Positions 1-30,741 of a stretch of 64,000 bases of DNA are shown in pieces (position 1 is the stretch's first letter; each line of letters opens with the position of its first letter). The translations under genes and the position numbers were made by a program. The DNA is taken from positions 4,747,863-4,811,862 of the forward strand of contig CAJINV010000003.1 of NCBI GenBank assembly GCA_905178155.1. The letters are read 5' to 3'. The notes below the pieces were generated by a model that had not been told where the DNA came from, made no database searches, and saw only the letters and a list, made by a program, of their open reading frames with translations. This stretch comes from Amoebophrya sp. A120. Taxonomy: Eukaryota > Protista > Dinoflagellata.

Positions 1-1533
1 CCCGCCCGCGAGTTTGTGTCTTTCTTTTCAATTTCATTTTGAGCTCGCGAGCGCATGTGCGAGCGCTTTAGTTTTTGGCTGTTCGAATCCTAACTCAAAC
101 TCAACTGCTCGAGGTATGCCGTTTTCGTCGCCGTGTGCTGGAGCCGGCCTATCAGCGCAATTCCAAATAGCCCGGCCGACCTTTGGGACGAGCGCGAAGG
201 TGGCAGTACAGCTTCTGTCTCTCTGGGGTGAAAACTGCATTGCTCTCTGGGGAGCGAAAGGAGGCGCATTGCTGCGCAAACACGGACTGCAAGGAGGGGC
301 AGCGCAGGTTGTCGGCGACGGAGTTGGGCTTGGGGCACACCAAAGACTTCTACGTCGGCGCTAGAAGTTTTGGCATGGCCACTGCGACGGGGGCTGCACG
401 GTCGGCGCTTTTTGTCGGTGGAGCACGAGCGGCTGCGGCACTTCCCATGCCATGTGTTTCCGGTGGATGAAAGCCCGATGCTCGCGAAGTCATGAGGAGC
501 GGGTACCAATAAGCCGAGGGCCAACATCAAGATCGAGAACAACTTGACACGGCAGCTGCGCGCGAGGACAGGCATTGGAATAACGGGGCGGAAGTCGCTG
601 CGCGTCCGTTTGAAGGCGGGACGCTTTCGGGATGGCCGCGCGGACAATTATTGCAGCCGGAGGCCGCAACGCGGCATTTTTTGGAAAAGTCAAGTGGGCT
701 CGTGCTGCGGATTTGTCTTGCGTGGCAACCAAGCAGGACCACGGGGCTGCAGCAAGAGCAAGCTAGGAACTACAAGTAGCAGTGCGAAGATGGATTAACA
801 TGCAAAGAGCATGAAACTGAGGGTGACCACGCCCGCAATTTCTGAATAGCGGAGCACTCAGACTCGTGCGCGATGTTACCTGGACTCGTGGTCGTGCGCG
901 ATGTTACCTAGCTTACCTAGAAAATTACGCGACAAAATTTCTCGGCTCTGAGTCTGCGCACGATCGAATGAGCTGAGGAGAAGAGCCTCGAGCTTGATTG
1001 GTAAGTATCAAAGGCTCTGCAGGTCGTGGCTCTTGATTTTCACTTATAGTTATAGCGATAGACATACGCGAGCTTCGTTGATCAAGAAGTTGAAGGAAAA
1101 AACAGGAAGCAGGCGACAAAGTGTTTACTTGCGCAAACGCAGTGCGTTCTTTCGCGCCTTGTCTCGGAAGCGTGGCGTGATCGATGTTCCCATCGTCGTC
1201 CTGTGTTGTTCGCGTCCACCGAGGCTCCGTACGACCGCGCTGTTGTTTGGTGACGAGGCTGAAAGTCATAACACGAGAACTGTCTCTTTGGCACGGAAAC
1301 GGAAGAGCAAACAAGATCCAATGTCTGGCCACGTTTGGGCACGAGTGCGCCCGTGTGCGAGTTCGCGTGGCGCGCTCGGTTTTAGCATGATCCGCCGTGC
1401 ACTTAAGCGGCTGGTTGGTAGACCGTGCCTCTTTGATGAAGTGGCTTCTTTGCGAGTCGAAGCCTAAATTTAAACGCAAACGCATTCGCTATCGATAGAT
1501 TGGATTTTAGTTTACAGTGCCAAGCTGATGCCT

Positions 1534-1544
1534 ATATAAAGCAC
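1534..1544 (+). promoter_or_regulatory. TATA-like motif ATATAAAGCAC (identical copy 8161-8171; variant ATTTAAAGCAC 21702-21712)
   Basis: Exact 11-mer upstream of the HhH-like gene and of the transposase ORF; function not shown. Confidence 0.25.
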
Positions 1545-1949
1545 GATGTCTTTATTTGTACTCGAGCCCTGTTTCCCTGGATTCCTAGGCTTTTACTTCT
1601 AGCTCTGAAATTAGTACTAGATGGCCAAAGTCTAAGTCAAAAGACAAAATCGAAAGCGCCACTCTGGCTATTCGGCTCCGCGAACGTCTCAGGGAAGGTT
1701 TTCCTCGCCCCCGCAGCTTCCTCCGCAACGAAGCCGGAGTCACGAAGCACCTCTTCAACATTCTTGGCGCGACATCAAACGAAGGGGCCGTCGGCAGCAA
1801 AACTAACCCGCCCCCCGAACCCGACCGGGTCGTCGTCGTGGCAGCCGCCCGTAGAACGAAGGCAACTCGCCATCGAGAAGAAGGGTCCGCGTGTTGCGTC
1901 GTTGCGCATACGACCCACGGCCCCAGGTGCAGCAAGCACACGCGGCGAA

Positions 1950-3301
1950 ATGGCGCAAGCAGCGGGGGAGGCCCTGAACGTCTTTTGGGCACCCAGAGGA
2001 CCATCGGACTACTGGTCCATTTTCCTTTTTGTTTCTGAGCGTTGGTGCAGGCACCTTCTGGCGTTGGAGGGAGAGGCAGCTGCTTCAACAAGTCCAAGCG
2101 CGACGTGCAAGATTTCTCTGATGCACAAGAGCGAGCTATTCGAAGCCGGTGACTACGCTTACGCAACTCTGTCGGTCACGGGCAGCCAGGTGGATGAGTG
2201 GATAAAGAACCACGGGAGAGCAGAAGGTGCGGCGTTTCTATTTTTTCTTCTTTTGCGCTCCGGCTACAGTCTCCTAGTGAAGCTTCTCTTTGGATTTTGC
2301 ATTGCAATATGTGGGTTTTGGGTTGATGAATGGCTTTCATGCTAGCAGAGCCCGGCCTAATATATGGTCGGCGAGAACAAGTAGAGGCTTTCCGTTTCAG
2401 TTTCAAACCCATCTTGGTCAGTTTGTGACTGCAGCCTCCCCCGGCCCAGTGCCAGTTCAAACGAATTCAAACCAACCGCATTCCAGGTAGCGACGATATT
2501 TCGCACAGGCGGTCCCGCCTCATCGTGCGCACCGCATCGACGAAGACGGACTGGGAGGACCGGTGCAGATCAACGCTGATCCTGGTTTACGAAATGTCGC
2601 CGCTTTTCCTCCATGACTTGGAGCAGGCTTTCCCCGGCACCGCGAAAATCCCCCAGGCAAAATTCCGGCAAGAAGCGAAGCGGTTGATGACTAAGGACGG
2701 CGCCGCGGCTCGATACTGGAAAAAAATGCAGTACTGGCGGTCGAAGGAGGACGATGTCTACCGGGAGAAAAGTCAGTCGGAGCTTTGGGGCAAGCTTGAG
2801 GACAACGTGCAGAAACTTCGGAAAACCGACGCGGGCGGCAGCCGAATGGACAAGACCGACCTGATGCGACACGCGGTAGATGCGTGCGGTGTTTGGAGCG
2901 CCAGCAAAATGGTGTTGTGGATGCAGCACAGCTACAGAACCACGCTGGGGGAAGGCGAGAGGATGCCCCACTGCCTCGCTTTGGGCGTCAAGGCCCCGCT
3001 CTGTTTTGGGGGAGGACCGAGGCGGACGCTGAACCTTCTGTACAACAAGAACTACCCGAACCTGAACTGCGCGGTGACAAAAAAACGGACGGACCTGAGG
3101 TATTTTAGCGATATGGGCCACAACTTCGTGAGCGCCATCCGGGCGGCAATGCGGGGGACCAAGTGTCCGAACATGGAGCGGGTTTACGGGTTTAACGGGA
3201 AGGCGGACGCGCGGGACCGGCTGCTTCTCACCAGCTACTGGTGCGAATTCAGCCGATGTTACCGCCACCTGCTGGCGTCGGCCCGGTCGGCGCCGCAGTA
3301 G
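1950..3301 (+). CDS. HhH-glycosylase-derived protein resembling the 5-hmdU DNA kinase helical domain (aGPT-Pplase1 family); exons ~1950-2226 and 2487-3301
   Basis: GT(2227)..AG(2486) intron joins ORF 1500..2345 to ORF 2525..3301 in frame. Motifs in family order: FLFVSERW; YAYATLSVTGSQVDEWI; HhH-like DACGVWSASKM; FGGGPRRTLNLL; YWCEFSRCY. Start codon uncertain. Confidence 0.55.
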
Positions 3302-4424: not shown

Positions 4425-4469
4425 CCAAGCATAGTCTCGCCCTGTAACGACAGTTACACGAGCGGACTG
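4425..4469 (+). repeat. Palindrome family copy 1 (core TGTAAC-GACA-GTTACA, 4443-4458)
   Basis: 41/45 identical to 18931-18975 in direct orientation. Confidence 0.9.
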
Positions 4470-5816
4470 TGTTTTTTTGATCCGGAGCATCTTCATTGTG
4501 CCGCCCACCTACTGGCCGGAGGGGAGATGGATAGCCGAAATCAATAAGGTAAAGACCATCGGCCCGGCTCTGCTCGAAGTTGAGCGGGAGAGAGACAGAG
4601 ACCAGGAGTGGGCTGGAGCTTCCTTCTATATCCACACGCGCGTGCGCTTTTGCGTTAAGCTTAACAAGACTAAATCTAAATCTAAATGTAAAACTCTTGC
4701 GCGAGTTTCGGTCTTGCTGGTTAGCGTCTAGTTGTGAGTCTGAAACAGAAATTGAAATAAAGATGAGCAGAATTATCGCCGCGCAGCCGTACTGGAAACA
4801 GTCAGGCGGCGATAAACCGAGGCCCGGGCCGCCACAGAGTAGCGTCACCGCTGTCGGCTTGTCGCGGGTCAAGTTTTTCCAGCAGCAGACCCCGCCGATC
4901 CACCTCCGCATGAAGAAGCTGAAGAACGGCCCTACGCCACTGGCCTCGCAGCGGAATTCCCACGTTGTTAAAAACCCCGGGTCGGCGAGTCCTTTTCACA
5001 CTGATGATCTCTGCGGGGCCTTTACTTCCCCTGCTCCGAGCGACTATCACTCCCCGCGGTCCGAGTTTTGGGATTTCAACTGCCCGCTGATAGGTAACTT
5101 CCCAAGTTTCAGCGTGTCCCGCCAGCCACCGAGGCTGATGAATCTAGCCGGATACCGAATCTGCACGCAAATACGAGCAGGCGAGCCCGCTTTTCAAGAT
5201 TTGGCAGCAGCTGGGCCCGTGCGGGGGTATTGGAGCCTATCTGAAACAAAATCGCACCCATTTCACCATGCGCTGCGGTAGTTCAAACTGGTCATGCCGT
5301 ATGAAACAAAACAGGCATCGCAAAACCGCGGCGATGATCTGTTCGAGTTCTGCGTCCAAACTGATTATAAAGTTTGGGCGAAGGACAAGCACCAGTACGA
5401 GTAGCACTAATCTCGCGCATTTGGCTTGGTGGGGGTGCCTTTTTGTTTTGCATACAGCCGATCGCACCGCGACACTGCTGGGCGGGCCGTTCCCCGCCAG
5501 CGCAGGAGGAAGAACAGTGAGAAGAAGGCGGGATCCCCTTTCCGAGTAGCGCAAAGTCCTGAGCCCGGGGCTTCCACGCAACAAGAGCATCGTACTGGTG
5601 GTGACGCGGGAGGAACGTTTGCTGCGAAGGCGTTGGAGGAGAAGCTTTTGAGCCCCGCAATAGCAAGTCGCAGCTTCAGCGATGTTCGTGCTCCGGCTGC
5701 TGGCGTCGACTTGTGGATTGACAGCCCGGATCTTCTACCGCTCGGAGCAACAGCAGCAGCTTATTGGGCCTCGCCGGCTGTAGAAGAAGCAGCGAAGCGT
5801 CCTTGCGCCGATAGCA

Positions 5817-6851
5817 GTGCCGGGAAAGCTCCTGTGCGCGACGTCGTGGGCCGCTCGGATGCGAATCGAGTCGAAAGCGAGTCCTATTATCATGGGCACG
5901 CGAGGAGGAAGAGCTTGGGGCCGCACATTGGGACAAGTCAACTTCAAGGGTTTTGCTGTGACGTGGGAGCACGGCGCCGAAAGGTGGACAGGTACAGACT
6001 ACCTCAAGTTGTAGTTCGTGCGCAAATTATACCAGACCACACAATCTACAAACGCGCTTTAGTGTCAAAGTCAATAGCTTTCGAGTTTGCATGCCCTAGA
6101 AGCAATAGACCCATGCTCAGCCTGTGCTGTTTTATCTGCTTGGATTTTGCATGCGCTTAGTTTCGCTTTTTAAGCCTCTGCACGCCGCCACGTGCAGGAT
6201 AGATGATGACGGTGATGATGTATGTTCGGCGTATGACTGCGTGCTGGTTTTTTTACTTCCAAATTAAAAGGATGCGTCGGCGGGTGTGCTGCAGCCACCT
6301 CTCCCCGCAGGCACGACGGGCAGCGCAGATCAAAAGCGAAACGCCATGAGCGGAGGGCCGCTGTTCTGCTGCGAGTGGGCCCGCTTCTAATCGCAGGCAA
6401 GTGGAAGGCTTTGAGCTCCCATCGCCCCTCAATGACCATCAGGTTTTGCGACGACAAGGCCGCCAGGCTGGACTTCGGGTTGCCAGCATTCGCGCTTGCC
6501 TCGGAATCCGATGCGCATGGGGAAGAAACAGTTTCGAAACAGCCCACCGAGACGCGCGGCGCCTGCGGTTACAGTACAGGACTGGGCCCATTCTCCCGAG
6601 CGGATCGCGCGCCTGATTGCAGCGACTGGAACCTCATCTCCGAGAAGGAGCAGCAGGACGCGCTGGTTCTTTTTCACGAGGATGTACGGAGGCAGGTCAA
6701 GGAGCACCGCGGAGAGCTGTCCGCCGTCGCCTGCAAATGCCCAGCCACCCCCAGGAAGCCGGGCAAGCGAAAGAAGAGAACAGTGTGCCGGTGCTACGAT
6801 GCATTCAATTCCGAACTCGCTGAGCTGGAGCGGGTAGAAAACCTCCTCAAG
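5817..6851 (+). CDS. Possible spliced hypothetical gene fragment (Cys/basic C-terminal part)
   Basis: ORF 5817..6014 frame can join ORF 6375..6893 through a GT(~5992)..AG(~6579) intron; GT donor after ...ENLLK. No recognisable domain. Confidence 0.25.
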
Positions 6852-6945
6852 GTGCGGCGGTGCCGGTTGCGGGCTACCGGTGTTGATGTGTGACGTGGAT
6901 CGAGTGGCCCGGCCCCGCATGTGGAGGAGTGGGATGGGAGCTGGA

Positions 6946-6975
6946 GTGCGCTCGTGTAACGAGCGTTACACGACC
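6946..6975 (-). repeat. Palindrome family copy 2 (core TGTAAC-GAGC-GTTACA, 6955-6970)
   Basis: Reverse complement is 27/30 identical to 15731-15760. Confidence 0.9.
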
Positions 6976-8342
6976 GGAATAGGTTTTCGCAAAGTAAGCA
7001 CAAGTAGAAGATTTGTGTCCATACAGATACATGCTCTGACGCGCCGACTAGTAACGCGGTGCCCTCTGGACGATGGCCGTTCCAGGGGGTGAGTGCATCT
7101 ACATGCAAAGAAACGAGTGAGCAGCAACAGTGCTTCATGCTTTTTAGTCGATGTTTCAGCGAAGGTTCGAAATACCTTCGCTCAGATGTGGCGCGAGTCG
7201 CAATCATAGTTAGTAGTGCTTGACCCCCATCATGTGGATTTCAAAAAAAAAGTTAGTTCGAACGCCCCGAGTAAGTCGCCATAGTTGAAAACGTACGTAC
7301 CCGCGTGTGAGTATTTTTGTACACATGCAAACGAACCGATGGCGATGCCGAAGCTACGCCTGTAGATGGAGGCGGAACTACACAGAAGGCGCGCGCTCTT
7401 CTGTGCAAGTGCTTTCCCCGCAACGTACTACCGGAGTGCGCTCATAAACGTGGCGCATCGTGTTCAGCCAGAAAGCTTCCTGCTATGGGGGTCACGCTCC
7501 GTGTGCATCTTGGAATTGTGGCGATGTTTCGAATAGATAAGCAAAAGCAAGCTCCTTCAAACTCCGAGCCAAGAAGTTCTGAAGTTGAGAAACCATCAAG
7601 CTCGCCTTGTTCCCGTGCTATGGTGGAAAAACAGATCCTGCAACGTTCGCAAAGGACGAAGATGAGAGTTTTTTTCTTCTCTGTTCGGGTTGCGCGGTTG
7701 TTGGGGGGAAGAGGTGACTTTTCTTCTCTCAACACCGACGACGCGCTTCGTTTTTCTGTATCTTTACGAACTCACACAGCACGCCTGGTCCCCACCTATT
7801 TCGGTTGATTTAGACTTTACAAGGCAAGGAAAAAGCAGGAAGTGTGCCAATTTTTCTGCTTCTTTTCCTACTCGCCTTGTCCCCATCTAAAAATGAATAT
7901 TTGCAATAATCAGAGATGCTTTTTTAATGCTCCACGCAGCGCGATCTACGTTTTATTTCTTTTCGTTGAACTAGTCTTTGATCTGCGCGGCGCTAAAAAG
8001 ATTAAAGATGGAAGGAGGAAGGAAGCCACTGCGGAGGAGCCAGAAATAAAGTACAAAGTATCTCTTTTGCTGCATGTGGTGCGAGCGTGGTAAGCGCGGA
8101 AAAGCATTATTACACATAGTGATGCGTCTGGTGTATGCAGTGCAGGCGGGGTAAGCGCCAATATAAAGCACTCAGTAATGGAATGAATTTTTAGCATAGC
8201 GCGTTAGTCAAAAGGATGGCAAAGAAATAAAGCAATAACAAAAACTGCAGGTAAGCACGAAGGGCGAGGGAGTGGGAATCCCCTCCGGCCGCAGCGAGTA
8301 GGAACTGGAAACGGAGATCCCCCTGGTAGTGGGGCGAAGGAG

Positions 8343-11300
8343 TTGAGCTCAAGTCTCCTCCTCAAGGAAGCAGCCGAACGTGGTGGAGAAGGAGACACTG
8401 CGAGGCGCGGGGGTGGTCGGGGGCGACAGAAATTTTACGGCGCTGACGGAACGAAAACCGAGTACGGGAAAAATCGCAGCAAAGGAGCTTTACGTAGCAG
8501 GGGGCGCCCCCCCTGTCCACTACTATTGGCAAAGCAAACTGGGACTTCGGGAGTTCGAGCTGCGCAGCTTACGGGCATGTCTACACGTGGCGGCACGCGG
8601 CGATCATCGTCAGGGTGCAGCTGGCACTCAGAAAAATCGGGTGGACCACGAAAGCCATCGCGCCTCGCGCGCAGAGATGTTCTTGCCGACTCTGTTACGC
8701 CCGCAGCTGGCCGCCGGCGCTCTGCGGGCCCTGGACACAAGCAGCGACGGCCAAGAAACCACATTCGGGCCTTGATATCGGATAGTGACGACGCGGCCCG
8801 GAGTAGAGAAGAAACAGCGGCGGACGATTCGCCATTCGCGCGAGGAGAGCGCGAGGAGCGGTTGCTGCTCGGCCTAAACCCTGCTTTGGCAAAGCAGGAT
8901 GGCGGTGGCGCGAAATCCTTCCCCGCGCGGAGCGCCGCTGCCAGCTCCGGAAATCCGCCAGGACCTCGAGCAGGCCGTGCCCAAAAGATTGGTTGCAGAG
9001 GGAGGACCTGTTTCTCTTCGAACCCGCCGGCCCGCCGGAAAAGCCGGCGCCCCTGGTGGAGGCGGAGTGTATCCTTGAGCAGTGTGACCAGCAGCAGCAG
9101 CGGGGCGGCTACTTCCGTTGCTCATAGTTCCCGCGCGTCGCGGACAAGCATTCCGACATCCTCCGGCGAGGATGCGCGCGTTTTGGCAGCTACGAATCGA
9201 GAGAAGTTGGCGTCGCAAACAAACAAATTCTTTTCCAATGTCTACCCAGGTACGAACGCGGAGAAAATGCATCACCGCCGGGTTGCTGCTGTTTTGCCGC
9301 AGGCTTACGCCCGCAAACTTGCGAAGGAAGTCCAGACCTTTTGGAGACACGGGGCGACGCCAATAGTGCGCTGCGAGTTCGATTGCACGGACTTTGGCTG
9401 CTTACTCCCGTCGCCGCTGAAGCGCTCCCGGCAGGGACGGAGGGGGCGAGCACGACTGCGGAGGCGCAAGCAAGGAGGCCAGGTCGTGTTAGATACCTCG
9501 ACGAAGTGGATTGTCGCTCTCCTTTCTGTGCAAGGTGTCGATAATCGGGCGGAAGGAATGACGCTCACGCCGCGCGTCGCATTTCCTCTTCCCGGCCATG
9601 TCCTACCGGGTCAGCCACGCAGGCGGCAGGATGAAGCACCGGTGGTAAAGCTCCCCGGCCACGAGGCGGGGAAGGTGGTCAGTGTCTTGCTTCATGACCT
9701 GTACCCGATTCTCCGCGCGCTTTTTGATCTCCCGCTCGCGCAGGCATCGGCGAAGTATGGCGCTCTCGATGTCAGGCGGTTGATCGTCGACTTGTGCTCC
9801 GATAGTGGCGGATCCACGGTCCCCTGCCAGCGTCTGATGCTCCGGGCCCTGCGACAGTGGAAATCCACGTGTGATTACCCCGTTCTCCTCCTCACGAATT
9901 TCTGCCGCGAACACCCCGCCCAAACTTTGCAGAAAGAGGCCACGCTGGATGTGCAGCTTCGGCTTTTGCCAAATCCAGCAATGAAGAAGGGCGGCGCATC
10001 CGGTTTTGCAGGTGGACAGGCAAGCGCCCGAGGCGATACCTCCGGGCAGGCCACCGAATTTCTTGCAGGACCGGAGGGTGCCGGCCCCGAAACAGCTCCG
10101 GGCGCAGATGAGAACATGGGCACGGAGGCGGGGGCTTTTGGCGCGGCGGCGAAAGAAGTAGAGCAGGACATTGGTGTGCCAGGAGCCGACGGTCTTGACG
10201 ACCTCCGCATTTATGATATCCTGCACAAGCGCGACAACGGCGGGAACGCTTTGAAAAGCAGCGACGAAATCCGAGAGCGGGCAGAGATTCACGCGAAACA
10301 GGTTGCGAAGAAAAAAAAGCGGTACTTTTTGACCTATTCTTATGCCTTTAATCGCCTGGTGAATTTCAACCGGCGGTCCTTCTTGGAGGCGATAAATAAC
10401 AGCAGACCAGTGGTGGTTGCGGCGGACCAAGCCGCACAGGAGCGCTACAAGTTCGCGCTAGACCGCACGCATTCACTCCTGCGGTTCCATCGGGTTCTCG
10501 CTGCCGGCGACGACGAGCCCTGCTTCGCGTTTTGCTGTGGTGACGTCCTGGTTCTGGAGGCCGGTGAGGACGAGTACCGGGCGCGTGAGTTTTTGCAGAA
10601 TGTGCTCCAAACCGCGCGGCCGGTTTCGGAGACGCGGTGGTGGACGGTGCAGGATAACGCGAAACAGGCTTTGGGGTACGGCTGCCTCCGCGGTTGTCTG
10701 CAGGGCGTGCGGGTCGGCGATGTGCATGTTGGGAACGGTGAGTTCACACCGACGGACTTTTTTGTTGGTGTTTCGACGAGCGCTTCCTGTGACTACCCGG
10801 TTCTGGCCCATGCTCTGCTGCTGGTGACCGGCGCTCCATCTTGCCTCTCCTGCAAGGTGTACAAACATGCCATCCGCGAGAACGTTGTCTTCAATCCGAG
10901 CGTCGTCGCTTCCGATCGTTGGGACGAAATGCTATCCAAGTTCTGCGCCGTTGCCGAAGCCTCCGTCAAGCGGTCCTGCCCGTGCGAGTTCTTTTGTGAC
11001 GTTTGGATAATTTCAGCGGGTGCACACGGGGCGGCGCGGTATCATGAGCCAGTACGAATGCACGCAGTTGTGGGGATTTTCAAGAGCCTCGCCGGGTATT
11101 TTTGGAGATTTGAGCAGCAAGAGGCGGCCGAGTCTTTCCTACGTCGTTTCGCCAAGAAAACGCGGCTTCTTGAGCCGGATCAGCGCCTGAAGCATCTAGA
11201 CAAGCTCCTGCGGAAGGTGGACAAGGTCGAGCAAAAACACCGCACGAAAATCATCTCCCTCGCGGAGATGGAGCTGCTCAGGGATCTGAAGGCCGTGGCC

Positions 11301-15760: not shown

Positions 15761-16599
15761 GGGGTTGCGTGTCTGAAGGACGAAAGTGTCTGTTCGGACG
15801 ATCTGTTTTTTTGTGCCGCAGCGCAGAGCTGCATCGCGATAATTGAAGCTGAAGGCCGCCGCTGATAAACACGAGAATTAGAGAACAGAAGCAAGAAGGC
15901 GCTTCATGTGGTTTCTTCGGTTTCCGGTTGTGTTTCTTCTTGTTGTCGTTCCACATTTTTTTCTCTCCAGAAGGAAGAACGAATGGCGAGCCCGTCGAGG
16001 TGAGGTGCTTTTTTTTTGTGACGTGCCGTGCGCGAGCACACCAGCCACAGCTACAGAAGTGCGCCGCTGCTCCCCGCTCTGGATTTCTATGCCACGCTTG
16101 AAGCGATAAGTATCGACAAAACAGAGTCCAGGGCGAAAGCTCCTCCGGTATAACTTCGCGATAGGCGCGGCCAGCTCGTTTTTTTTTTCTTCTTGTCGCT
16201 CCTAGATCCGTAGTTCGTTGTGCAGATTTTTTTAGTGTGTTTCCTGATTTACATACAGATCAAGATCATCTCTAGTGCATAGCCCTTTCGACTATCTCTA
16301 ACTATATTTCTTTAGTGCAGATCTACAAGATGAGATGCGCAATCTCGGTCAATCACTGCGACACAGCAAGACGCTTGGAGTTTTAATATGGTGCGCATAA
16401 TGAAAGAATTGCGACTGACTTCTAGAATTGCGATTTACTTCTAGACTCTAGAAACACTGATAGACATACACGGACGGCCTTTTTGTCATTTTGAGCCAAG
16501 CAGTAGCAGTTCGGTGGCTGCGCCCGGCGATAGTAGCTGCTCGCCCCGGTACCAGTCCAAGGTGGTCAGCTCGCCCGCTCACTCACCGGCACTACAAGA

Positions 16600-19500: not shown

Positions 19501-22500
19501 TTGCATCTCGCATGTAATGGGCAAGATTTTACTCTTCCATCAAGCACCTGCTCGCGTAGCGACCGTTACGCGGGCGGGTTCTTACTGAATATTTTTCCTT
19601 TTGTCTGATAACAGGTAGAACTGACCAACGCGTACTGGGAAAGAAACTGCCTCGCGGAGTACGAGACGCTGCTGAAGGCGATAGCGAAGGCGCCATCGGA
19701 GTCGGAGGCGGAAAAGTGCATCAAGGGCAGCCTCGCGACCAAGCTCCACTCCTACCACACCCTCGCGACAAAAAAACTCGGCCACGCAAACAAAATGGTG
19801 AAACTGCGCCCGAGCAACAAGAATTACGCTTCGGCCGTGAGTGTCCGTCTGTGTCTGCAGTGTATTAGATCGGCGGGCATTGGGGAAGGGGATCACATCT
19901 CGAGGATGGGCGGCAGGCGCCTGCTCGTGCTCGGTGGGCAAAGGCATCCGGCTTCTAGGGCTTCTCTGCTGGCGGGGCCGGGAATTAAACTTTCGCCGCT
20001 TCAGCTTTTCGTTCGAAAGTTGTAAAAGTTTCCGCTCCCCCCACTCGCGGGACTGAGAAAGAACAGGCACTTTTGCCCATGCCCTCGAGTAACCGCGGTT
20101 ACACGACGGAGCTACGCTCGCAGCCTGTCCTTACTCCTACGGCGCCACGTCAAGAAGGCGCCAGCGGGAGGTCGACGCATAGCCTCGAGCCCTTAGCAAG
20201 GCCAAGGGCCCAGATCAGCTTCAAGGGCGCGACGTGCTTGCAGATCCTGCCACGCAGTGCCCAACAGAGGCAGACTCGGCTTTCCAGGGTCATTAGGGTA
20301 GGAGGGGCCGGGATGCTCGTGGTAGTTCGGATGTTTGCCTACCCCACTGGCGCAAGAAATTCAAATTGGCGTCCTGTTTGTTAGCCACAGCCCAAGACAG
20401 CATGCGCATGGCGCTAAGAATTAGTGTAGCCCGATCTCTTTCACCCTGAGCACAGACGGCACCTCTGAAAGTTCATGCGATGGATGGTAGCAACAAATCC
20501 CAGCACCCTAGTCCGCGCGTCAGTCTCCATGTGCCCCAGCCCAAAGATCTCTGCTGGAAGCCCAAAAGCCTCGCCGACATTATCGGCAGTGCGAATCTGG
20601 AAAACATCATCGGCAGTGGCGGCATTGATGCCGGGGTCGGCAGCAGTGGTGTGGACGGCAAGACCGGTAGTGGTGTGGACCAGGGCAGCAGCAACGTCAA
20701 CTCCGACAAGGCCGGTAGTGGTGTGGACGGCGCTCCCAGTGGCGCGGGCGAGAAGGGCGTGACCGCCGGCAAAGAAGAGAAACACAAAAAGGACAAGAAG
20801 AAGGACAAGAAAACGGACAAGCAAACGGACAAGCAAACGGACAAGAAAAAGGACAAGAAAGCGAAAAAGAAAAAGAACAAGAACAAGAGCGGTGGTAGCG
20901 CAGAGCAGTCGCGCGAGAACCCGGGCGTCGACCAGGGTCAGAGCATGGGCGAGGAGGAAAGCTTGCACCAGAAAAACGACCTGAACTTTTATAACCAGAA
21001 GACGAGCAGCAGCAGCAACTTCCTCGACAAAGATCGATCGCTACCCGCCGGCGCGCCGCCCCGTAGCAGCAACGACGCCGCGTCGCGGGGGCAGGAACAG
21101 ATCGAGAAGCCAGTGCTTCACGGTATTTATTATTTACGTGTTGGCGCTGCTACTTGCTACCTGGCTCGTCATCTAGTGTATGCGTTAGAGGATATTAGCT
21201 GTGACAAATCTGCAACGGAGTGTTTTCACAGTAACAATCACGTGGCGGCATTTTCTAGCCGCCCGATTCGTGTCGATCGAAGATAGAGATGCAACCGTCG
21301 CAGGCCTGAAAAGTTGACGCGCTGCGCCGGGAGTCTTTATCTTCTGGCGCGCGTTGCCCCCGGCCTGTTTGCTTCGCGCGCTCCTCCGAAAGCGACCTGC
21401 GGCCACGCGGCGAGCAGGCCCGGGCAGGCCGCGCGTTGCGCTGTTCCATCCTTCTCTAGCGGCACATCCGTGCGGCTTGCGATAAGGTGGTGGTGAGGTT
21501 GCGCCAGAGCATTCGGTGGTGGGGCGCGTTTTCTTGCCGTCGTTTTTTGGTCTGGCCGGCCACTTCCGGGGGCGCACGCCCATCTTTTATTGGTGCCGCC
21601 CCAGACGCCCGCCTCCGCTAGCCAGTGCCGCGCCACGCTTCGGATCGCGCGGAAACACAGCCAGCAGTCGGGCAAGCCAGAGGCCCTCGAGAGGGAGGCC
21701 AATTTAAAGCACGGCGCACCGCCGAGGGGCTGGTTTGGGGGCGCACAGGTTGCCAAACCCTTCAAACCAGCACATCGGCGCGCGGGCGGCCTTTTTTTCT
21801 TGTTTGACTTTTGAAAAGCATTACTGTTTTCAAAAATCTCAAGAAAGGAATTGTTTGACTTAAAATTTTTTTTTCCGAAGTTGAAAAAAAAAAAACTGTT
21901 TTTCAAAAATCGACCGCGCCCATTTTGGCGGAAGGCCTAGCACGCACACGCTAAAAAAATTAAAAAGGTATTTTGAAGCCGACGCCACCGCCGACGCCGC
22001 ACGTTGCCAGGAGGGGAAAGGATGCAGTCGTGGATTGCGAGGAAAGCATCGTCGAGGAGGACAACATGCGGGAGTTGGCCATCTTGGCCACGACGCGCGA
22101 CGACGACGCCAACTTCCTCGACAGTTGCCGCCCCGGCAAACCGCCATTCTCCCGGTGGTGCCCGACCCACGCGTTCAAAAGTGTCGCGCAGGGGTTGGTG
22201 GTGCAGGCCTACCGCAGCGCGTTGGGCTTGACGAAAACTCCCAGCTATGCGTACATTAGTGCGTTCGACAGGGAAGGAACCGTCGACCTCCACGATTTTA
22301 AACCTTTCGCGTGTTGGAAGGTTGCGCAGCTGAGCAGCCTTGTAGCAGCGGAACAGAAGAAGGGGAAGAGCAGCGGAGCGGGCTCGTCGTCTAACTTCGT
22401 GGCCGAATTGAATGCCATCGGTTTGGACGGGAACGACTTGCAGTTTGTCGAGTTCCCCACCAATGCCATCGAGGGAACAGGAACGAAGCAGTACAAGAAA

Positions 22501-24171
22501 TATTTCCGCACCAACCGCTTCGTGTCGAACTCGGCCACGGCAATGAAGAAGTGCGGCGGGTTTCAGACTGTTTACGGGCGACGAGCCGCGGAGGGATTTT
22601 TTCAGAATCCAGATGGCGAGGTTGTGACTCTCAACCTTGCCGACATGCCGGCGACCCAGCAATTCATAATCGCCTGCAACGATCTTGGCATGGACGGCAA
22701 GCTCGAGGTGAAGCAGACCGCGCAGACCGTGGTGATGCACTATGGAACGGAACCAACTTCCCAGCGGATGGAAGACGTGGAACATACGGACCGCGAGTTT
22801 GACGGCGTCGACTTGACCTTCGGTGTGCGTTGGGGCGCGCAGCAAAGTGAGGTCGACCGGGACATTGGAGAATTTGCGATTGCGATGGACTTCGTCAGCC
22901 CGCTGCATTACTACATTGGGATCGAGAACCTTGTGGCGAGAGTCGACAACGACAACCCGGCCCGTACGAGTTTCTACGACTGCGAAAAGGGGGAAACCGC
23001 GAAAGGCGTGCTCTACCGTGACACCATCGGCGGGCGGGGGTACACCAACCGCTTCGAGGCGCTTCAGATGGCGGTGACCAGATTGGTAGAGTTGAGTCGT
23101 TGCAGTCCCCCGGAGTACGTGAATTTCTTGACGCAGAGCTTGGGCCGACTGGACAAAGAACTGGACGGGCTGAAGCGGAAGAAGAAAACTGAGTTGGTCG
23201 CTCGCAAAAACAGCCTGCTGGCGGAGAGGAAGGTCCTCACCAAGCGGATCGAGTTTTTTGTCGACGCGCTGCCCGAGTCGCCGTACATCGACCCGAAAAT
23301 GGAGCGGATGAGCACAAAGGTCTTCTCCACCTTAAACTCCGACGTGAAAACGTTCTCCTCCGTGGAAGCAGGATTTGAATTCTTGAACAAACCGTGGAAG
23401 CAGGATTTGAACAAGCAGTTTGATCACGGCGGACCCTTGGACACGGGCGCGAAGAACAGTACTACTGCGGGGAAGGATGGGAGTGTCAGCGGTGGAAAAG
23501 TCTCGAGTTCAGCCGGTGCGGGGTCTACCGAGGTGAAGAAGGTTACGTTCGGCGGGCAAAAGACGGAAACGGTGGAGACGCTGCTTCCGCCCTTGGAGGA
23601 AGAACTGGAATCGGCCGCCAAGAAACCTACAAACAACGCCGTTTCGAACTTCATGCGGGCGGACTTTGGTGGATTGCGTGGCGCGGGATCTGGATCCTCC
23701 GGTTCTGGAAACGCTGACGATTCGGCCTCGGACTCGTTTTACGACTCGAGTGACTCCTCCGATTCGAGTGATGATGATGATGATGGTTGTAGCTCCGGCT
23801 CGGACTCGAACGACCCGCTTGAGGACTCCTCTTCCTCGAGTGACGAGTCCGGTTCGGGTAGCGATGATGATGGTTTCACTTCGGATTCCGCGGTCGTCCC
23901 GATGCAGAAGCAGAACAGCAAGAAGCCGTCCGTCTTCGCCTCTGTGAAGGATGCGATCACCAAGCCGGAGCGCGACATCTTGGATGAGGACGATATCACG
24001 TCGAACGCCAACGGGAAAAAGGACGATGGCAAGGACAAGCCGACGGCTGGCGCGAACGGAAAATTCCCCCCCATGAAGAAAGGCGCGGGCGCTGGAACGC
24101 AACAGGCGGCCGCCCAGGGGACCACCCTGCCGACCATCAATAAGCGATCTACCGGGGTGAAAGGCGGGTAA
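16600..24171 (+). CDS. Large multi-exon hypothetical protein (~1600 aa) with basic N-terminus, Gly/Ser and Lys/Asp low-complexity tracts and candidate 2OG-Fe(II) oxygenase motifs in the last exon
   Basis: In-frame GT-AG chain: introns ~16799-16966, 17314-17528, ~18006-18197, 18689-19059, 19352-19614, 19837-20455, ~21123-22027. These link ORFs 16600, 17065, 17490, 18156, 18854, 19795, 20480 and 21973. The last junction is least certain, so this could be two genes. Confidence 0.55.
18931..18975 (+). repeat. Palindrome family copy 4 (core TGTAAC-GCCC-GTTACA, 18949-18964), intronic
   Basis: 41/45 identical to 4425-4469; lies inside predicted intron 18689-19059. Confidence 0.9.
19551..19577 (+). 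repeat. Palindrome family copy 5, degenerate (CTCGCGTAGC-GACC-GTTACGCGGGCGG), intronic
   Basis: Same spacing and flanks as the other copies; inside intron 19352-19614. Confidence 0.6.
20084..20109 (+). repeat. Palindrome family copy 6 (core AGTAAC-CGCG-GTTACA, 20088-20103), intronic
   Basis: TCGAGTAAC-N4-GTTACACGA as at 15733; inside intron 19837-20455. Confidence 0.85.
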
Positions 24172-25258: not shown

Positions 25259-25708
25259 ATGGTGAAGGTCGTTGGCTCAGTGGATAAGGCAGCCAGTCCG
25301 AAGGCGTCGGCGTTGGCACCGGAGACCGCCAAGCCGGTTGGAAAAGCGGCTGCAAAGCCCCCGCCCATGAAGAAATCCTCCGAAGCGGTGGCGCCGAAAC
25401 CCTCGGCGGAAAAGCCGGCTGCAGAAGAAGTGGCGAAGCCCGCGATGAAGTCGGCCGGATTCGCGGCATCGAAGAAGAGCTCTGCTGTTGCGGCCGTGTC
25501 CGCGAAAAAGTCTGGAGTTGCCAAGTCGGCCCCGGGTGCGAAGCCGGCGGCGAAGGACGGCGGCAAGGCTTCGGCGGTTGCCCCTGCGGTGCCCAAGTCC
25601 AATCCCCGGTCTAACGTGGTGCAGAAAAATGGTGGCGACAAGAAGAACACGGGGAAGGCGAGCAAGGCGGCGACCCCAAAGTTCGGGGGGGTAATCAAGA
25701 AGAAGTAG
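25259..25708 (+). CDS. Small Lys/Ala/Pro-rich basic protein, histone H1-tail-like
   Basis: ORF from ATG 25259 dominated by K/A/P/S (AAKP, PMKK, AMKS, SAKKS); A/C-rich leader and upstream AG at 25186-25187. Confidence 0.65.
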   Translation: MVKVVGSVDKAASPKASALAPETAKPVGKAAAKPPPMKKSSEAVAPKPSAEKPAAEEVAKPAMKSAGFAASKKSSAVAAVSAKKSGVAKSAPGAKPAAKDGGKASAVAPAVPKSNPRSNVVQKNGGDKKNTGKASKAATPKFGGVIKKK

Positions 25709-28454
25709 GAAGCAGTGAATTATACTTAGAGCGAGAAGCATGTGGATCGCCACTTCTTTTTCGTTCCAATTGTAAACTTCGACTTCAGTCTGAGTTTGGT
25801 TCTGCAAGTAGATCGCCATCTATCACGTCGATTCGCGATCTTTTTATTTGTTGTGCCTCCCTCGTCATCAGTTTTAGCCTGAATCTGGAAAACCCCGACA
25901 GCCTTCAGACCGCCCGATGAAAATAGACGCCAGCAGCCTTATCGTTAATATAATTTTCATTGCTTTATCAATCTCATGACGCTTTCAGCTTTTCGAGCAC
26001 GAGCTAGCTCCGTTCCTGTTGTGGTAGAGAGGGCCAGCAGAGGCGCGATGCTCTGTCGCTACGACAGTGCGAGAAGTTAACTCTTGCGGATGAATCCACT
26101 ACGACTACATAGCAGTACCTGCACGCTCGTTGTTACTTCGGAAGTTCGGCACTTCTAGTTTTCATGCTAGGTCTGCCCCTCTTTCGATTCGTTTCTATAT
26201 CTAAATCGATTTTACATTTGTTTTTACCTATGGATGCGCACTTACCCGCAGGCTACCCAGGCTTACGCACTGAGTTCTCGCGTGTCTTAGTCGTATCCGG
26301 AAGTGGCGGACTTTCTATCTGCGAAAAGTACGCGCGCCGAAGCTACTCCTCCTCCGAAGCAGTATGTGACGCCCGCGTCGCTCCTGTTGCGCGAGTATAT
26401 AGCAGAGGCAGCGCGCTAGATTATATCAGCGCCCAGCATGTGCTTGTCGGCTGTTCTGGCCGACTTCGCTCCTAGCTTCTTGCTGTGCGTAGATTTCTAC
26501 TTTTTTAGTGTAGTAGCAGGACAGGGGTGGCAGTGCTCTGCCCTTCTAATTGATTCCGTGCTGGCGCGACCTGTGGTCGGCACTATTCATTGTAGATGTG
26601 GCACTAGTCTCACGGGCTCAGGCCTAGCTTCGAGCTCATCCACCTAGAGAAACACCTCTTCCCGCTCTCAATCAGCAAAGTCCTAGGCGATATAGTCTGT
26701 TCGCGATGTTCGTTAGGGCCCGCCACGCAAGCTCTCGCGGGCGACCTTGTGGAGTTCGACGCAGTTGCAGACCTACTTCTGTTGAAGCACACATTTAGCG
26801 CAACAGCAGGAAAACAGAAACGGCGCGAAATCATAGTGCAGCCTGGATTTGGTAGAGAAGCCCACTCGCTTGCGCTTCGGCAAGTTTTTCTAGACTTTTG
26901 AAGTTCACGACCGAAGTAGAAGCGAGCTGCGTTTTTCAGCTCGCAGCTTCTACATCTCGTCTCCAATTTCTCCGACTGCGAGCGAAGTATATTTATAAAA
27001 GAAGAGGGGCGCGCTCCACCATAATTATATTTCTCTTGGGGAGCGTTCTTCTTCTCCCTTATGCCTGTGTTTCAGTGAGTTGCTGCGTCTCATATTACCC
27101 GCAGGCGATATCTGCTGAAAGTATGAATTTTAGATGCACAAGTTTATGGATGTGCTCCTTGTTCTTCGATCGACCAGTAACTAAAGTGCGTCCGCTTCAG
27201 CAGTAAGTAGTGAAATAAATAAGAAAGAGGCAGGTTGCCAGACAGTCGGAGCCACCTCGGCGCAATCGCTATACTTACAAAGAAAGACTACCGGTAACAA
27301 AAAATTATCAGCTCAAGAAGTTAGTGGAATGTAGTTGAGCTCGTGCTCTCTATGCTAATGGTCATAGTTTTAATTATGTTCTTCCCAAAAAACAGAAAGC
27401 AGTCCGATTCTATCTGATTTGCGGCGTTTATTTACATCGACCACGCACAAGCACAAGTAGCCTCGCGTGGTACTATTCTGGTCCCTCAGCGTTTGCTGCA
27501 AAAGCAGGCGTGGAAGCCACAGTAGTGCCATAGAAGGATGCCAAATGTTAGAACTATCAAAAGCGCAAACGTCCTCCGCGCTAACACTTTATTTTACTCA
27601 GTCCGCCCTGGATCTTCTACCACTAATTCTTCGAGTTATGACTGGGCCAGTCAGTCGAATGTCAGACCTCCAACTTCGATTTTGAACGGCAAGCAATCGG
27701 TGTATTTAGTTTTAGTTGCAAATGACGCGCCGAGGTTTGGTAGCGTGCGCGCCTCCTTCGGTAGCAGTGCCCGCGACCTCCGCCTCGTGCGCCGTCGCCC
27801 CTGCAGCTTCTCGCCTGCATTATCGAGAAGTCAGTGGCGCCGCCACCAAGAGTCTCGTAGTAGCGGCGGCGACTTCTCCCAAGCTAGATGCAGAGGAACC
27901 AAGTCGCTATCACTCGGCGGCCCTAGTGTTAAGTACACTATGTCCAACCGCCGTAGTGTCCATAGGCATCAGCGGGACAACCCTGGGTAGGGGCCAAGCA
28001 GCTACAGACGGCCTCTATTATTGCAGGCGAGCTCATCGGCATCTGTGGCCCAAGGGTAAAGGCGACAGTAAAAAGACTACTCTATTGCTCACATACTTCT
28101 TTACGACAGCCGAAAACTAGTCCTACGCGTCGGCTACTCTTGCAGGCTGTTGCTTGCTGAAGGTGTCCGTCACGGCGCAGCTAGCTCGGCACTATCGCGA
28201 AGAAGCGTCACTCTGTAGTTAACGCGGCGGCTCCGTCGAGTGAAAAAGAGCACACTGATTCGCACAGATTTAATTGATTTCTCAGCTCCCGTTTTGTTGT
28301 GACTGCGACGGTATGTTCTTCTGAAACTGAGTCTATAAATAGGCTGCTACCCCTTCTTGTTCTTTTGTAAAAAAAAAAACGACAAGCAACTGCCTCGGCG
28401 CGGATTATGCAGCCACTAGCACTTGGCCGGCGTTCTTTTATTATTGGAGTGGCC

Positions 28455-28481
28455 GTCCGCCCGTGTAACGCTCGTTACAGG
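28455..28481 (-). repeat. Palindrome family copy 7 (core TGTAAC-GCTC-GTTACA, 28464-28479)
   Basis: Reverse complement CCTGTAACGAGCGTTACACGGGCGGAC matches copies 1 and 4. Confidence 0.9.
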
Positions 28482-30741
28482 ATGGCACTGCGTTCGTATC
28501 GTGGCTTCTGAACAACATCGGGCACCAGAGTGATGGCCCCCTTATCGTAGTTGGGCTGCCGTGCGGGAATGTCATCGCATCGGTCCAAGTGTCTGCGGGC
28601 ACAGAAGCTGTATAACCGTCGGCATCGGAAGACTGCTTGCGCGCCGTGGGCGCGGGCAAGCGATCGCATTGCATTAGGGTGTATATCTCTGAAAAATATG
28701 GCTGGCACGTTTTCGCCTTTTGCGCTGGCATATTTGTCGTCGGTTCAGGCCGGGTGTGAGCCTGGTGCGTGATATCGCTGCAGTAGCCATGCTAGTCACC
28801 TGGGACTGCAGACTTTGCTAGCTCGTCATCTCTACAAATGCAAGCGATCGACTTATATATAAATATTACGGCTAAGGCAGAAGCTCGGTAGCAGCGCGTG
28901 TTTTTTGGTTGCCTCCAGTAAAATGCCACAGGATCCGCCCCTGATCACTAACCAAGCAAAAAAGGCATCAGAGCCGCGTCGTCTGCGAAAAGCAAAAGAA
29001 TTGAAAAGACACCAAAATGGGCTAGCTCTGACCTTTTTACTTCGCGCAAGGCAAGTTCAAATCGTTTTCTTTATTAGCCCACACAATGGCGTGGCCTGCG
29101 CTACGCCTATCGGAATGGATCAGGTTCGCCTTTCTTTTTGTATGTGAACGCTTAGAGCAGTGAACTTTGTAGCAGCTACCACCACAAGCGATCCGACGCC
29201 GGTGTTGACTACTTGATACGATCTAGCCTCGTAATTCCGTGACTCCCCGATCATTAATAAATTGGACCGATGTGCTTTGCACGACGTAACAAGCCGACTC
29301 TGCAGCCATCCGCCCCCTGTTGTGCGATGGGCGTGCCCCTTTCTTGCATTTGAATGGATCGGATCTAGATCTGAGCTGCAACTGCACCAATTCACAAAGA
29401 GGCGCGCTTTTTGATAAGCGTGAATTTCGACTAATTGAGATTTTTTTTATAACTAAGGGCCCGCAGCACTAGACGCTAGGGCCAGGCCTAGCCTCCGCCA
29501 GGTATCCCGTCGGCTATGGATGCCTGCGATCCAGCCGAAGGCAGCGCCCGAAACTGCTTCTAAGATACAGACTCGGACTTGTTTGCGACCTGCTGCTCGG
29601 AAGCTGAGGGCGGCCGCCGATATACTATTCATTGGACCGGCCAAAGCTAAGTAAAGCCGGGCCGCTCAGCGTCAAAGACCAAGTCCGAAGTTGTTGCGCC
29701 GACATTCAATGAGCCGGGACAAGCTCGGCCCCGCATTCAGGGTATCCCCGCACCCACCGGTTGGGTGTTTCCTCGTCCTCGCCCGTGGATTGGCAGCTTG
29801 AGGGTGTTTTCTATCGCCCTGATTTCCATCGGCTGCTTCGCCGGTGTTCGTGCTTGTAATAGTACTGCGCGAGCTGCCCTCCCCTATATTAAGAGCACAG
29901 CTACTACAACACGCACACGCGTGGGCATTTGGGTCTATTTTCTCTGCATTTTCTAGCCGTTGGCTAGCTCCCGCTGGCTACAGCCAGCGCTAAGGGTCGA
30001 CGGCTCTTGGATTTTGCCACATCAGCGCGCGTAGTATCTTATTTGGCATTGCGACTACATCTACGCACATCCTTGCATTTTGCATGTAGATTTAGATTTA
30101 ATCCTTACAGGCGAAGCACGCACATAAAGAAGTCAGGGGGTTGGATTACACTCGCCGCGCGGCCCCGGTGGCAGTGTGAGCGCTCGCGTTCGCTGCCGCG
30201 CATTCGCGAACAGCTGGTCGTTGCCGCTCACCAACGTCGACGACTGGTCGCATAGATGTCAAGACAAGAAATCGCTTTGGTTCAAGAAGGGTCGACTTGT
30301 CGGCCGTATTGTATTTTTACGCGGCGCCGGTCTTTCTGTTTCTATGTTAGGCATGACAAACGCCCTGGGCTTTATCTTTACATGAGTCACGAACCCGGAA
30401 GCACTACGCAGCTCGAAGCTCTGAATTTTAGGCATGGCGGGGGGATGCGCATCCTCGCTCAAACAACGCATAGAGAAACGCAATAGACAATGTTAAGACC
30501 GCCGACAGCTTATAGAGTTCTGTCCCATGATAGTGCGGGGAGTCAGAGCCTGTGTATGTATTTCGTGCAACACATTCCAAAGTCGATCCTTTGAACCAAA
30601 GCGACCCCATACCGGATGGCGATCCACGATACGTGCTGGACATTTGTCGTTCTGCCATAAATTGAATTCTTTGGGCAAGTTCCTGGCAAGTTTTTTACAA
30701 GTTCTTCACTCCGTACATTTAGACCCATGCTTTCGGAGTAA

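What the first reader, a model, noticed from the sequence alone, without database searches (positions are those of the whole stretch)
1..30710. Candidate giant hAT-like transposon carrying DNA base-modification and chromatin cargo
Seen: a + strand block opposite the host block, containing a DDE-like ORF, an HhH-like gene, a gene with HxD..H..RxS, an H1-like protein and a private palindrome family. Known: fungal KDZ-type transposons travel with TET/JBP dioxygenase and HMG genes; phage thymidine hypermodification acts on 5-hydroxymethyluracil through aGPT-Pplase/HMUDK proteins; core dinoflagellates have abundant 5hmU (I do not know whether this organism does). Inference: a >30-kb element that makes, reads or masks modified thymine to mark itself or avoid silencing. 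I know of no description of this combination with a hAT-like transposase.
Basis: partly seen in the sequence, partly recalled or inferred. Interest (0 to 1): 0.85.

Follow-up and report, generated by a model that had tools for sequence, protein, structure and literature searches.

The report
Overlooked large hAT-like transposon in Amoebophrya
This 30-kb stretch of a parasitic dinoflagellate-type genome holds an intact, likely hAT-type cut-and-paste transposase and a neighbouring partner gene that relatives also carry, so it is probably an overlooked large transposon, but the proposed thymine-modifying cargo is only weakly supported for one gene and unsupported for the other.

Summary
The transposase call holds. 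ORF 8208-14201 has 7 relatives at 28-31% identity, all from Amoebophrya sp. AT5.2. They share D, D, CxxH, TRW and E motifs. The predicted N-terminal domain is RNase H-like and aligns to Hermes in register with the CxxH (Z 6.3, tied with other RNase H folds).

New here: the next gene (D, 16600-19836) is homologous to C-terminal extensions of 2 of the 7 AT5.2 gene models, which points to a conserved two-gene core. Six exact GTAAC-N4-GTTAC palindromes and a distinct k-mer signature are confined to the block.

- The part laid on reads looks single-copy (16), and no TIR or TSD was found.
- Strand blocks are normal in Amoebophrya.
- The HxD..H..RxS gene scores negative against TET/JBP.
- The HhH-like gene matches HMUDK_hel only in motif-block tests (about p 0.03), not by HMM or HHalign.
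- hAT elements carrying TET/JBP are already published in rust fungi (PMC12730594).

Verdict: probably an undescribed, large, low-copy hAT-like element. Base-modification cargo is unproven.

The parts
86..400 (+). Possible degenerate remnant of the C-terminal domain of a second transposase of the same family (two frames)
   Evidence: tblastn P0004 vs window 227-391, E 0.002, 35% over 65 aa (111); colinear weak pieces from P0002 and P0007 (117); not recovered by a 6-sequence HMM at E<=1 (114). Uncertain.
1950..3301 (+). Gene A: putative 2 exons (1950-2226, 2487-3301, GT-AG, in frame); weak resemblance to HMUDK_hel/aGPT-Pplase1 (PF18723)
   Evidence: Model open. Hand-picked 3-block score 29.4, top of 163 ORFs, 0 of 500 shuffles reach it; unbiased blocks 5 of 150 shuffles. 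No HMM, HHalign, Pfam, PDB or Atlas hit.
4432..4469 (.). Palindromic site 1 (GTAAC-N4-GTTAC core at 4444, arms about 16 bp)
   Evidence: 13, 15, 102; 91% identical over 45 nt to the site at 18931-18975 (15)
4763..6893 (+). Gene B: likely multi-exon orphan; last ORF has Cys pairs
   Evidence: ORFs 4553-5281, 5411-6160, 6237-6893 (3, 7); no family hit above noise
6944..6981 (.). Palindromic site 2 (core at 6956)
   Evidence: 13, 15
8208..14201 (+). hAT-like DDE transposase ORF (1997 codons stop to stop; homology from about 9171). Predicted catalytic D at 9381, D at 9801, CxxH at 9903-9914, RW at 10635-10640, E at 11379; conserved C-terminal domain at about 13490-14050
   Evidence: 7 AT5.2 relatives, E 1e-109 to 7e-35; motifs; RNase H-like model residues 41-221; C-terminal profile hit E 1e-13 (114)
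14761..15075 (.). 58-bp tandem repeat plus inward-facing AACTTG arrays (+ at 14861, 14873, 14896; - at 15021, 15045); possibly a mini-element or an internal end remnant
   Evidence: 12, 15, 102
15725..15762 (.). Palindromic site 3 (core at 15737)
   Evidence: 13, 15
16600..19836 (+). Gene D: conserved partner of the transposase; model of 6 GT-AG exons, 674 aa without a stop, 3' end not fixed
   Evidence: Profile from the C-terminal extensions of P0003 and P0007 ranks three gene-D ORFs 1st-3rd of 236 (best E 0.0037); spliced model scores 17.3 bits vs max 2.3 in 1000 shuffles
18938..18975 (.). Palindromic site 4 (core at 18950), inside a predicted intron of gene D; a degenerate copy at 19556 lies in the next predicted intron
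   Evidence: 13, 114
20077..20114 (.). Palindromic site 5 (core at 20089)
   Evidence: 13, 15
20480..21286 (+). ORF E: low-complexity, Lys-rich repeat; orphan, or a tail exon of gene D
   Evidence: 7, 8, 12, 100
22066..24171 (+). ORF F (701 aa): orphan with HxD..H..RxS letters and an acidic Ser-rich tail; TET/JBP not supported
   Evidence: Forced block scores -3.4, -5.0, -5.8 against phage TET/JBP; HxD-to-H spacing 38 vs 50; HHalign probability 0.06%; no Pfam, PDB or Atlas hit
25259..25708 (+). Basic Lys/Ala/Pro-rich 149-aa ORF, H1-tail-like by composition
   Evidence: 117; no Pfam hit
28453..28490 (.). Palindromic site 6 (core at 28465, reverse polarity), in a 5-kb stretch without ORFs over 154 aa
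   Evidence: 13, 3
30676..30703 (-). Array of three AACTTG at 11-bp period, a candidate subterminal repeat of a right end, just before the AT-rich stretch (GC 0.29 at 31-32 kb)
   Evidence: 15, 102 (0 of 100 Markov simulations give a triple cluster), 2

Best explanation
The block is likely a single, low-copy member of an undescribed family of large hAT-like cut-and-paste transposons of Amoebophrya, built on an intact DDE-type transposase gene and a downstream partner gene (D) that relatives also carry beside their transposase.

Shown by calls: the transposase family and its motifs, homology of gene D to extensions of two AT5.2 transposase gene models, and the block's private palindromes and distinct composition.

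Inferred mechanism: the transposase would cut at element ends through flanking-DNA hairpins like Hermes (D-D-E triad with CxxH and RW). It would be guided by the helically phased AACTTG subterminal arrays, with a right end likely near 30,710 and the left end outside the window. Gene D would act as an accessory subunit, as second genes do in two-gene DNA transposons (recalled: Harbinger Myb, MuDR MURB, CACTA TNPA). The GTAAC-N4-GTTAC sites would be operators for an element-encoded dimer. Genes A, B, E, F and the basic protein are likely passengers. Gene A may be a divergent HMUDK_hel-type helical DNA-binding protein, but a thymine-modification pathway is not shown.
For: - Seven relatives, all named Amoebophrya sp. 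AT5.2 singletons, mostly 28-53% identical to each other: a diverged multi-copy family, as expected of a transposon.
- Motifs: TRW in 8 of 8 rows; first D in 5 of 5 rows with residues there; second D in 7 of 7; complete CxxH in 5 rows, while P0008 has H without C and 2 rows are gapped; E in 7 of 7.
- Model residues 41-221 match RNase H-fold proteins. Hermes 6dwz_A aligns at Z 6.3, rmsd 3.6, 120 residues, model 3-221 on Hermes 141-263, which would put model H226 on Hermes H268 (H268 and W319 from PMC4763223 and PMC5225508 passages).
- Gene D linkage appears in 2 of 7 AT5.2 models that sit on separate tree branches.
- The block differs from the host block in order-3 Markov composition: leave-one-out 28 of 31 windows, 0 of 60 permutations reach that; half-vs-half controls 5 of 16 and 9 of 15; accuracy peaks for splits at 26-36 kb; CA/TG odds 0.97 vs 1.09 in coding DNA.
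- Palindromes and AACTTG arrays occur only in the block.
Against: - No TIR/TSD pair at the tested ends or around the palindromes.
- Run X1 shows 16001-31377 as one unbroken contig at depth 43.6 vs 43.4 for the host contig, running through 30,710, so there is no near-identical second copy in that data set (X1 may be the window's own source).
- The model is weak (pLDDT 48.9, pTM 0.29), no fold match reaches Z 8, Hermes ties with Argonaute, Cas9 and terminase, and Pfam and PDB sequence searches find no hAT or BED domain (9, 42, 45).
- The gene-D link rests on automated gene models that may be fusions, and 5 of 7 models lack it.
- Linkage of genes A, B, E, F and the basic protein to the transposase was not testable elsewhere.
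- The composition contrast compares only two neighbouring regions.
Confidence: 0.55

Rival explanations
1. Only a core of about 12-16 kb (transposase plus gene D) is the element. The 30 kb is a nest of several old insertions, including a second transposase remnant at the window start and a mini-element at 14.8-15.1 kb, piled up at a strand-switch region, not one giant unit.
For: Possible second C-terminal remnant at 86-400; inward-facing AACTTG arrays at 14861-15075; only gene D shows linkage elsewhere; an AT-rich repeated stretch follows at 31-32 kb.
Against: Palindromes run from 4444 to 28465 across the whole block; composition is uniform across the block halves (9 of 15).
Confidence: 0.2
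2. A domesticated or immobile transposase-derived gene and its partner sit in an ordinary co-oriented host block of orphan genes, and the palindromes are sites of a host factor.
For: Single copy in X1; long intact ORF; no ends found; co-oriented blocks and about 60% unassigned proteins are normal in Amoebophrya (PMC7789003 passages).
Against: Seven diverged paralogs in AT5.2, none a close one-to-one ortholog; distinct composition and private motifs.
Confidence: 0.15
3. One reading: a >30-kb element whose cargo makes (ORF F as TET/JBP), reads or masks (gene A as aGPT-Pplase/HMUDK_hel) hydroxymethyl-uracil to escape silencing.
For: Gene A keeps 7 of the 12 residues invariant in the C-terminal half blocks of a 15-sequence HMUDK_hel alignment, including Cys-Glu (sequence read); block tests; core dinoflagellates make 5hmU with TET/JBP enzymes (PMC11572971 section 7); fungal transposons carry TET/JBP (PMC12730594).
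Against: ORF F scores negative at all three TET/JBP blocks and has the wrong spacing (the reference set was 22 phage proteins only). Gene A scores -0.8 bits against the HMUDK_hel HMM, below many shuffles, with HHalign probability 0.13%, and the family's most conserved N-terminal block was not matched. No 5-hmU P-loop kinase was found. The M6 gene in this position (gp55 by gene order) was dispensable in the reaction described in PMC8989533 (passages). Whether Amoebophrya DNA has 5hmU was not found in the passages read.
Confidence: 0.1

Closest known systems
hAT superfamily (Hermes; Kat1)
   Same: D-D-E order with a helical insertion between the second D and E, CxxH after the second D, RW in the insertion, RNase H-like catalytic domain; short subterminal repeats of opposite polarity.
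   Different: About 1,600-1,900 aa with a charged insert after CxxH and an extra conserved C-terminal domain; no BED finger or hAT dimerisation domain detected; no TIR or 8-bp TSD found; a conserved second gene.
MULE/Mutator (Muta1, MuDR)
   Same: Shares CxxH and the conserved Trp with hAT (PMC5225508 passages); MuDR has a second gene (recalled).
   Different: The Trp here lies in S[ED]TRW, the hAT-type context (recalled); no long TIRs found.
TET+ hAT7 and KDZ transposons of fungi (Kojima 2025, PMC12730594)
   Same: DNA transposons, including hAT, that carry extra genes proposed to counter silencing.
   Different: Those have a recognisable TET/JBP gene and mapped ends with 7-bp TSDs; here TET/JBP is not supported and the ends are not mapped.
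HMUDK_hel / aGPT-Pplase1 (PF18723) of thymidine-hypermodifying phages
   Same: Gene A has three ordered look-alike blocks ending in Cys-Glu.
   Different: No HMM or HHalign signal, longer spacings (41 and 74 vs 31 and 52), N-terminal block not matched, no kinase partner.

Membership tests
hAT transposons | DDE triad on an RNase H fold | tested here: met
   Conserved D, D, E; residues 41-221 of the model match RNase H folds. The third acidic residue lies in a low-confidence part of the model.
hAT transposons | CxxH after the second D and RW in the insertion domain | tested here: met
   FCxEH complete in 5 rows, TRW in 8 of 8 (74); in register with Hermes H268 by extension of the structural alignment.
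hAT transposons | Sequence or structure closer to Hermes than to other RNase H proteins | tested here: inconclusive
   Hermes Z 6.3 is tied with Argonaute and terminase at Z 6.3-7.0 (72); no PDB sequence hit.
hAT transposons | N-terminal BED finger and C-terminal dimerisation domain | tested here: inconclusive
   No Pfam hit in the window ORF or the 7 relatives; divergence could hide them.
hAT transposons | Short TIRs and 8-bp (5-7 bp in variants) target-site duplication | tested here: inconclusive
   None for 14700-14870 paired with 15060-15160 or 30700-30800 (102); the true left end is likely outside the window.
hAT transposons | Dispersed copies or empty sites | tested here: inconclusive
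   7 diverged paralogs in AT5.2; single copy in run X1 for 16001-31377; no genome held.
TET/JBP dioxygenases (ORF F) | HxD..H..RxS in family context and spacing | tested here: not met
   Forced block scores are negative, spacing 38 vs 50, HMM and HHalign blank, against phage members only; Pfam Tet_JBP blank while it finds Cooper gp2 (100).
TET/JBP dioxygenases (ORF F) | Double-stranded beta-helix fold | not tested
HMUDK_hel / aGPT-Pplase1 (gene A) | C-terminal blocks GxF..D, GPGxxRGL, CEFxKxxR in order | tested here: inconclusive
   Post-hoc blocks: 0 of 500 shuffles; unbiased blocks: 5 of 150; HMM and HHalign blank.
HMUDK_hel / aGPT-Pplase1 (gene A) | Helix-hairpin-helix fold | tested here: inconclusive
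   Single-sequence model is mostly helical but pLDDT 36.9, unusable.
Phage-type thymidine hypermodification system | Linked P-loop 5-hmU DNA kinase | tested here: not met
   No kinase family hit in 18 block ORFs scanned with Pfam or 15 with PHROGs; DNA left of the window was not seen.

The most novel reading that the evidence does not exclude
The block is part of a giant (>30 kb, perhaps >50 kb) two-gene hAT-derived transposon lineage special to syndinian dinoflagellates. It has its own operator palindromes and carries a phage-type HMUDK_hel protein and a histone-H1-like protein that bind and shield hydroxymethyl-uracil-marked element DNA.
Probability: 0.15. Interest if true: 0.85.

Novelty: new variant of a known kind. 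Interest (0 to 1): 0.55.

Why it matters
Published work found only two putative transposases in one Amoebophrya genome and none in another, and used this to rule out transposase-driven spread of their invasive introns (PMC7789003 passage). A later study assigned some of those introns to TIR DNA transposons (PMC12130899 passage). A hAT-like family that Pfam does not see, with an intact member here and at least seven in AT5.2, would supply candidate enzymes and reopen that question.

A conserved second gene is unusual for hAT (recalled) and gives a handle on mechanism. If gene A proves to be a HMUDK_hel protein, it would tie a eukaryotic transposon to phage thymidine chemistry in the lineage known for 5hmU.

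Tried and rejected
- No whole genome is held, so no genome-wide copy or synteny test was possible.
- Word-based homolog searches found nothing for the transposase or gene A. One search missed the 7 true relatives, so these blanks are weak.
- ESM Atlas was blank for genes A and F. Pfam, PHROGs and NCBIfam were blank for block ORFs. Rfam was blank for 1-33000 (103).
- Transposase relatives were absent from viral and metagenome contigs. The prokaryote-genome scan could not be run with this alignment.
- Palindrome scans gave 0 viral hits and 41 metagenome loci with no DNA or protein similarity to the block. Of 43 flanking proteins scanned, 4 were serine resolvases and 5 ChrB, the rest mixed or unassigned. 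I read these as unrelated bacterial binding sites; the block has no resolvase.
- Palindromes as MITEs or Helitron ends: no flanking duplication, folding is weak in 5 of 6 (106), and no CTRR end is seen in the flanks printed.
- RNA: no RNA holder was listed. X4 and X5 laid 0 reads even on host genes, and X8 only short pieces, so expression and introns are untested.
- The single-sequence fold of gene A was unusable. ADDT (aGPT-Pplase2) fit gene A worse than HMUDK_hel (18 of 150 shuffles).
- The idea that gene B's last ORF is the transposase N-terminus was not supported by an N-terminal profile.
- The tree is a quick one with a long branch for the window protein, so its placement is unsure.
- Earlier-findings look-ups returned nothing.
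Full report
Setting. The window is eukaryotic, with GT-AG introns and two converging blocks of co-oriented genes. The only relatives found for its largest protein are from Amoebophrya sp. AT5.2, so I treat it as an Amoebophrya-like syndinian genome (inference). No whole genome is held. In two Amoebophrya genomes about 98% of genes lie in co-oriented blocks and about 60% of proteins have no assigned function (PMC7789003, passages). A + block of orphans facing a - block is therefore not evidence of an element by itself.

Transposase. Residues from 9315-12707 were scored against 1.84 billion representatives. Seven proteins passed E 0.001, all at E below 1e-34, 28-31% identical and 1590-2661 aa long; all 7 are AT5.2 singletons. 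The alignment shows E-x-D on the first strand, D-[SA]-GG, FCxEH, S[ED]TRW and SxxVE[FW]xH. TRW is in 8 of 8 rows, the first D in 5 of 5 rows with residues, the second D in 7 of 7 and E in 7 of 7; CxxH is complete in 5 rows, partial in 1 and gapped in 2. This is the hAT order: H268 of CxxH and W319 of Hermes are in PMC4763223 and PMC5225508 (passages), while the TRW and SxxxER contexts are recalled. MULEs share CxxH and W.

An AlphaFold model from 8 sequences is weak overall (pLDDT 48.9). Its residues 41-221 match RNase H-fold proteins without an E below 0.001 and without Z 8. Hermes 6dwz_A aligns at Z 6.3, rmsd 3.6, 120 residues, model 3-221 on 141-263, which would place model H226 on H268. 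It ties with Argonaute and terminase. Pfam, NCBIfam and PDB sequence searches see nothing. The ORF is intact and shares the family's C-terminal domain (E 1e-13). So it most likely works like a hAT transposase; formal membership is open because BED, TIR and TSD were not found.

A conserved partner. Two of the 7 AT5.2 models (P0003, P0007) have C-terminal extensions that are 28% alike. A profile from them ranks three ORFs of the next window gene 1st to 3rd of 236 ORFs (best E 0.0037). A six-exon GT-AG model of this gene D (16600-19836, 674 aa, no stop) scores 17.3 bits against a maximum of 2.3 in 1000 shuffles, and the alignment crosses a predicted splice junction. P0003 and P0007 lie on separate branches of a quick tree. 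Transposase followed by gene D thus occurs in three diverged lineages, either as adjacent genes fused by annotation or as true fusions. Five of the 7 models give no information on this. Gene D has no family or PDB hit.

The block as a unit. GTAAC-N4-GTTAC occurs exactly 6 times and once with a mismatch, all within 4444-28478; shuffles give 0.83. Arms extend to about 16 bp and the spacer varies. Two copies share 45 nt at 91%, two lie in predicted introns of gene D, and none is flanked by a duplication. I read them as binding sites for a dimer (inference). Three AACTTG at helical spacing stand at 14861-14901 (+) and 30676-30703 (-), with a pair at 15021-15050 (-); 0 of 100 simulations give a triple. 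They resemble subterminal repeats, but no TIR/TSD pair was found. Two-kb windows of 1-30000 and 32001-64000 are told apart in 28 of 31 leave-one-out tests, with 0 of 60 permutations reaching that. Halves of either block are not told apart (5 of 16, 9 of 15), and the contrast persists in coding DNA.

Copy number. In run X1, 16001-31377 is one contig without differences at depth 43.6, and the host contig is at 43.4 (16). The contig's length implies it reaches about 7870. A second contig of 29,145 bases matches the 18931 site with the 4 differences of the 4425 copy, which implies single-copy DNA from about 7750 to some 21 kb left of the window (inference from 15, 16). The element, if it is one, has no near-identical twin in this data set. 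A possible remnant of a second transposase tail lies at 86-400 (E 0.002 with 1 of 7 queries, 111; colinear weak pieces, 117; not found by profile).

Cargo. Gene A was compared with 39 HMUDK_hel and 43 ADDT phage-type sequences. The HMMs give -0.8 and -1.0 bits and HHalign 0.13% (127). Three blocks chosen after seeing the resemblance score 29.4, first of 163 ORFs and above all 500 shuffles. With blocks chosen by information content, 5 of 150 shuffles do as well for HMUDK_hel and 18 of 150 for ADDT. That is suggestive only; I put it near one in three. Dinoflagellate TET/JBP sequences were not in the reference set and the fold was not predicted, so a very divergent dioxygenase is not excluded. 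The basic 149-aa protein is H1-like by composition only.

Literature. TET/JBP genes occur in 11 lineages of fungal DNA transposons, including 20 hAT7 families (PMC12730594; abstract and passages, 86, 87). Dinoflagellate TET/JBP enzymes make 5hmU (PMC11572971; section 7 and passages, 27, 85). Phage pathways: PMC8989533 and PMC13229309 (passages). 5hmU over repeats: PMC11071213 (passages). AT5.2 has many transposon-domain proteins (PMC6482013, passages). Searches for Amoebophrya with hAT and transposase gave 0 papers; giant transposon, cargo genes, hAT, protist gave 1 unrelated paper; aGPT-Pplase with eukaryote and transposon terms gave 2 prokaryotic papers and 0 (68). The library lacks most subscription papers and Repbase, and I read no supplements, where such elements might be listed.

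Verdict. The transposase, the partner gene, the palindromes and the distinct composition are real. A large low-copy hAT-like element is the best reading (0.55), ahead of a nest of smaller insertions (0.2), a domesticated gene pair (0.15) and the full thymine-modifying model (0.1). It is a new variant of a known kind, interest 0.55.

Noticed in passing
window 30710-32050: AT-rich stretch (GC 0.29 at 31-32 kb) where the two gene blocks converge; several other X1 contigs match parts of it (31312-31381), so it holds a dispersed repeat.
   Followed up: no
window 39442-39654, 40392-40706, 44698-44818, 59280-59542: Short inverted-repeat pairs 50-250 nt apart between host ORFs, like the introner elements described for Amoebophrya.
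   Followed up: no
window 4668-4693 and 30078-30103: A (CTAAAT)n-like tract occurs as an inverted pair 25 kb apart inside the block, 88-91% alike.
   Followed up: no
window 30450-30672: A 223-base contig of run X8 (RNA is only a guess) matches without differences just inside the candidate right end.
   Followed up: no
window 34401-36098, 36295-37641, 41490-42494: Ordinary host genes: IQ-repeat protein, TPR-like protein, Ulp1/NEDP1-type C48 peptidase.
   Followed up: no
L003, L005, L032, L036 and L039:10003-13293: In bacterial metagenome contigs the same palindrome core sits about 20-60 bp before serine-resolvase genes; in L039 it forms six copies around parA/parB genes, three at a 36-bp period.
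   Followed up: partly
window 13014-13055: A short motif (LDPVTG) in the transposase's low-complexity linker recurs in three AT5.2 relatives.
   Followed up: no
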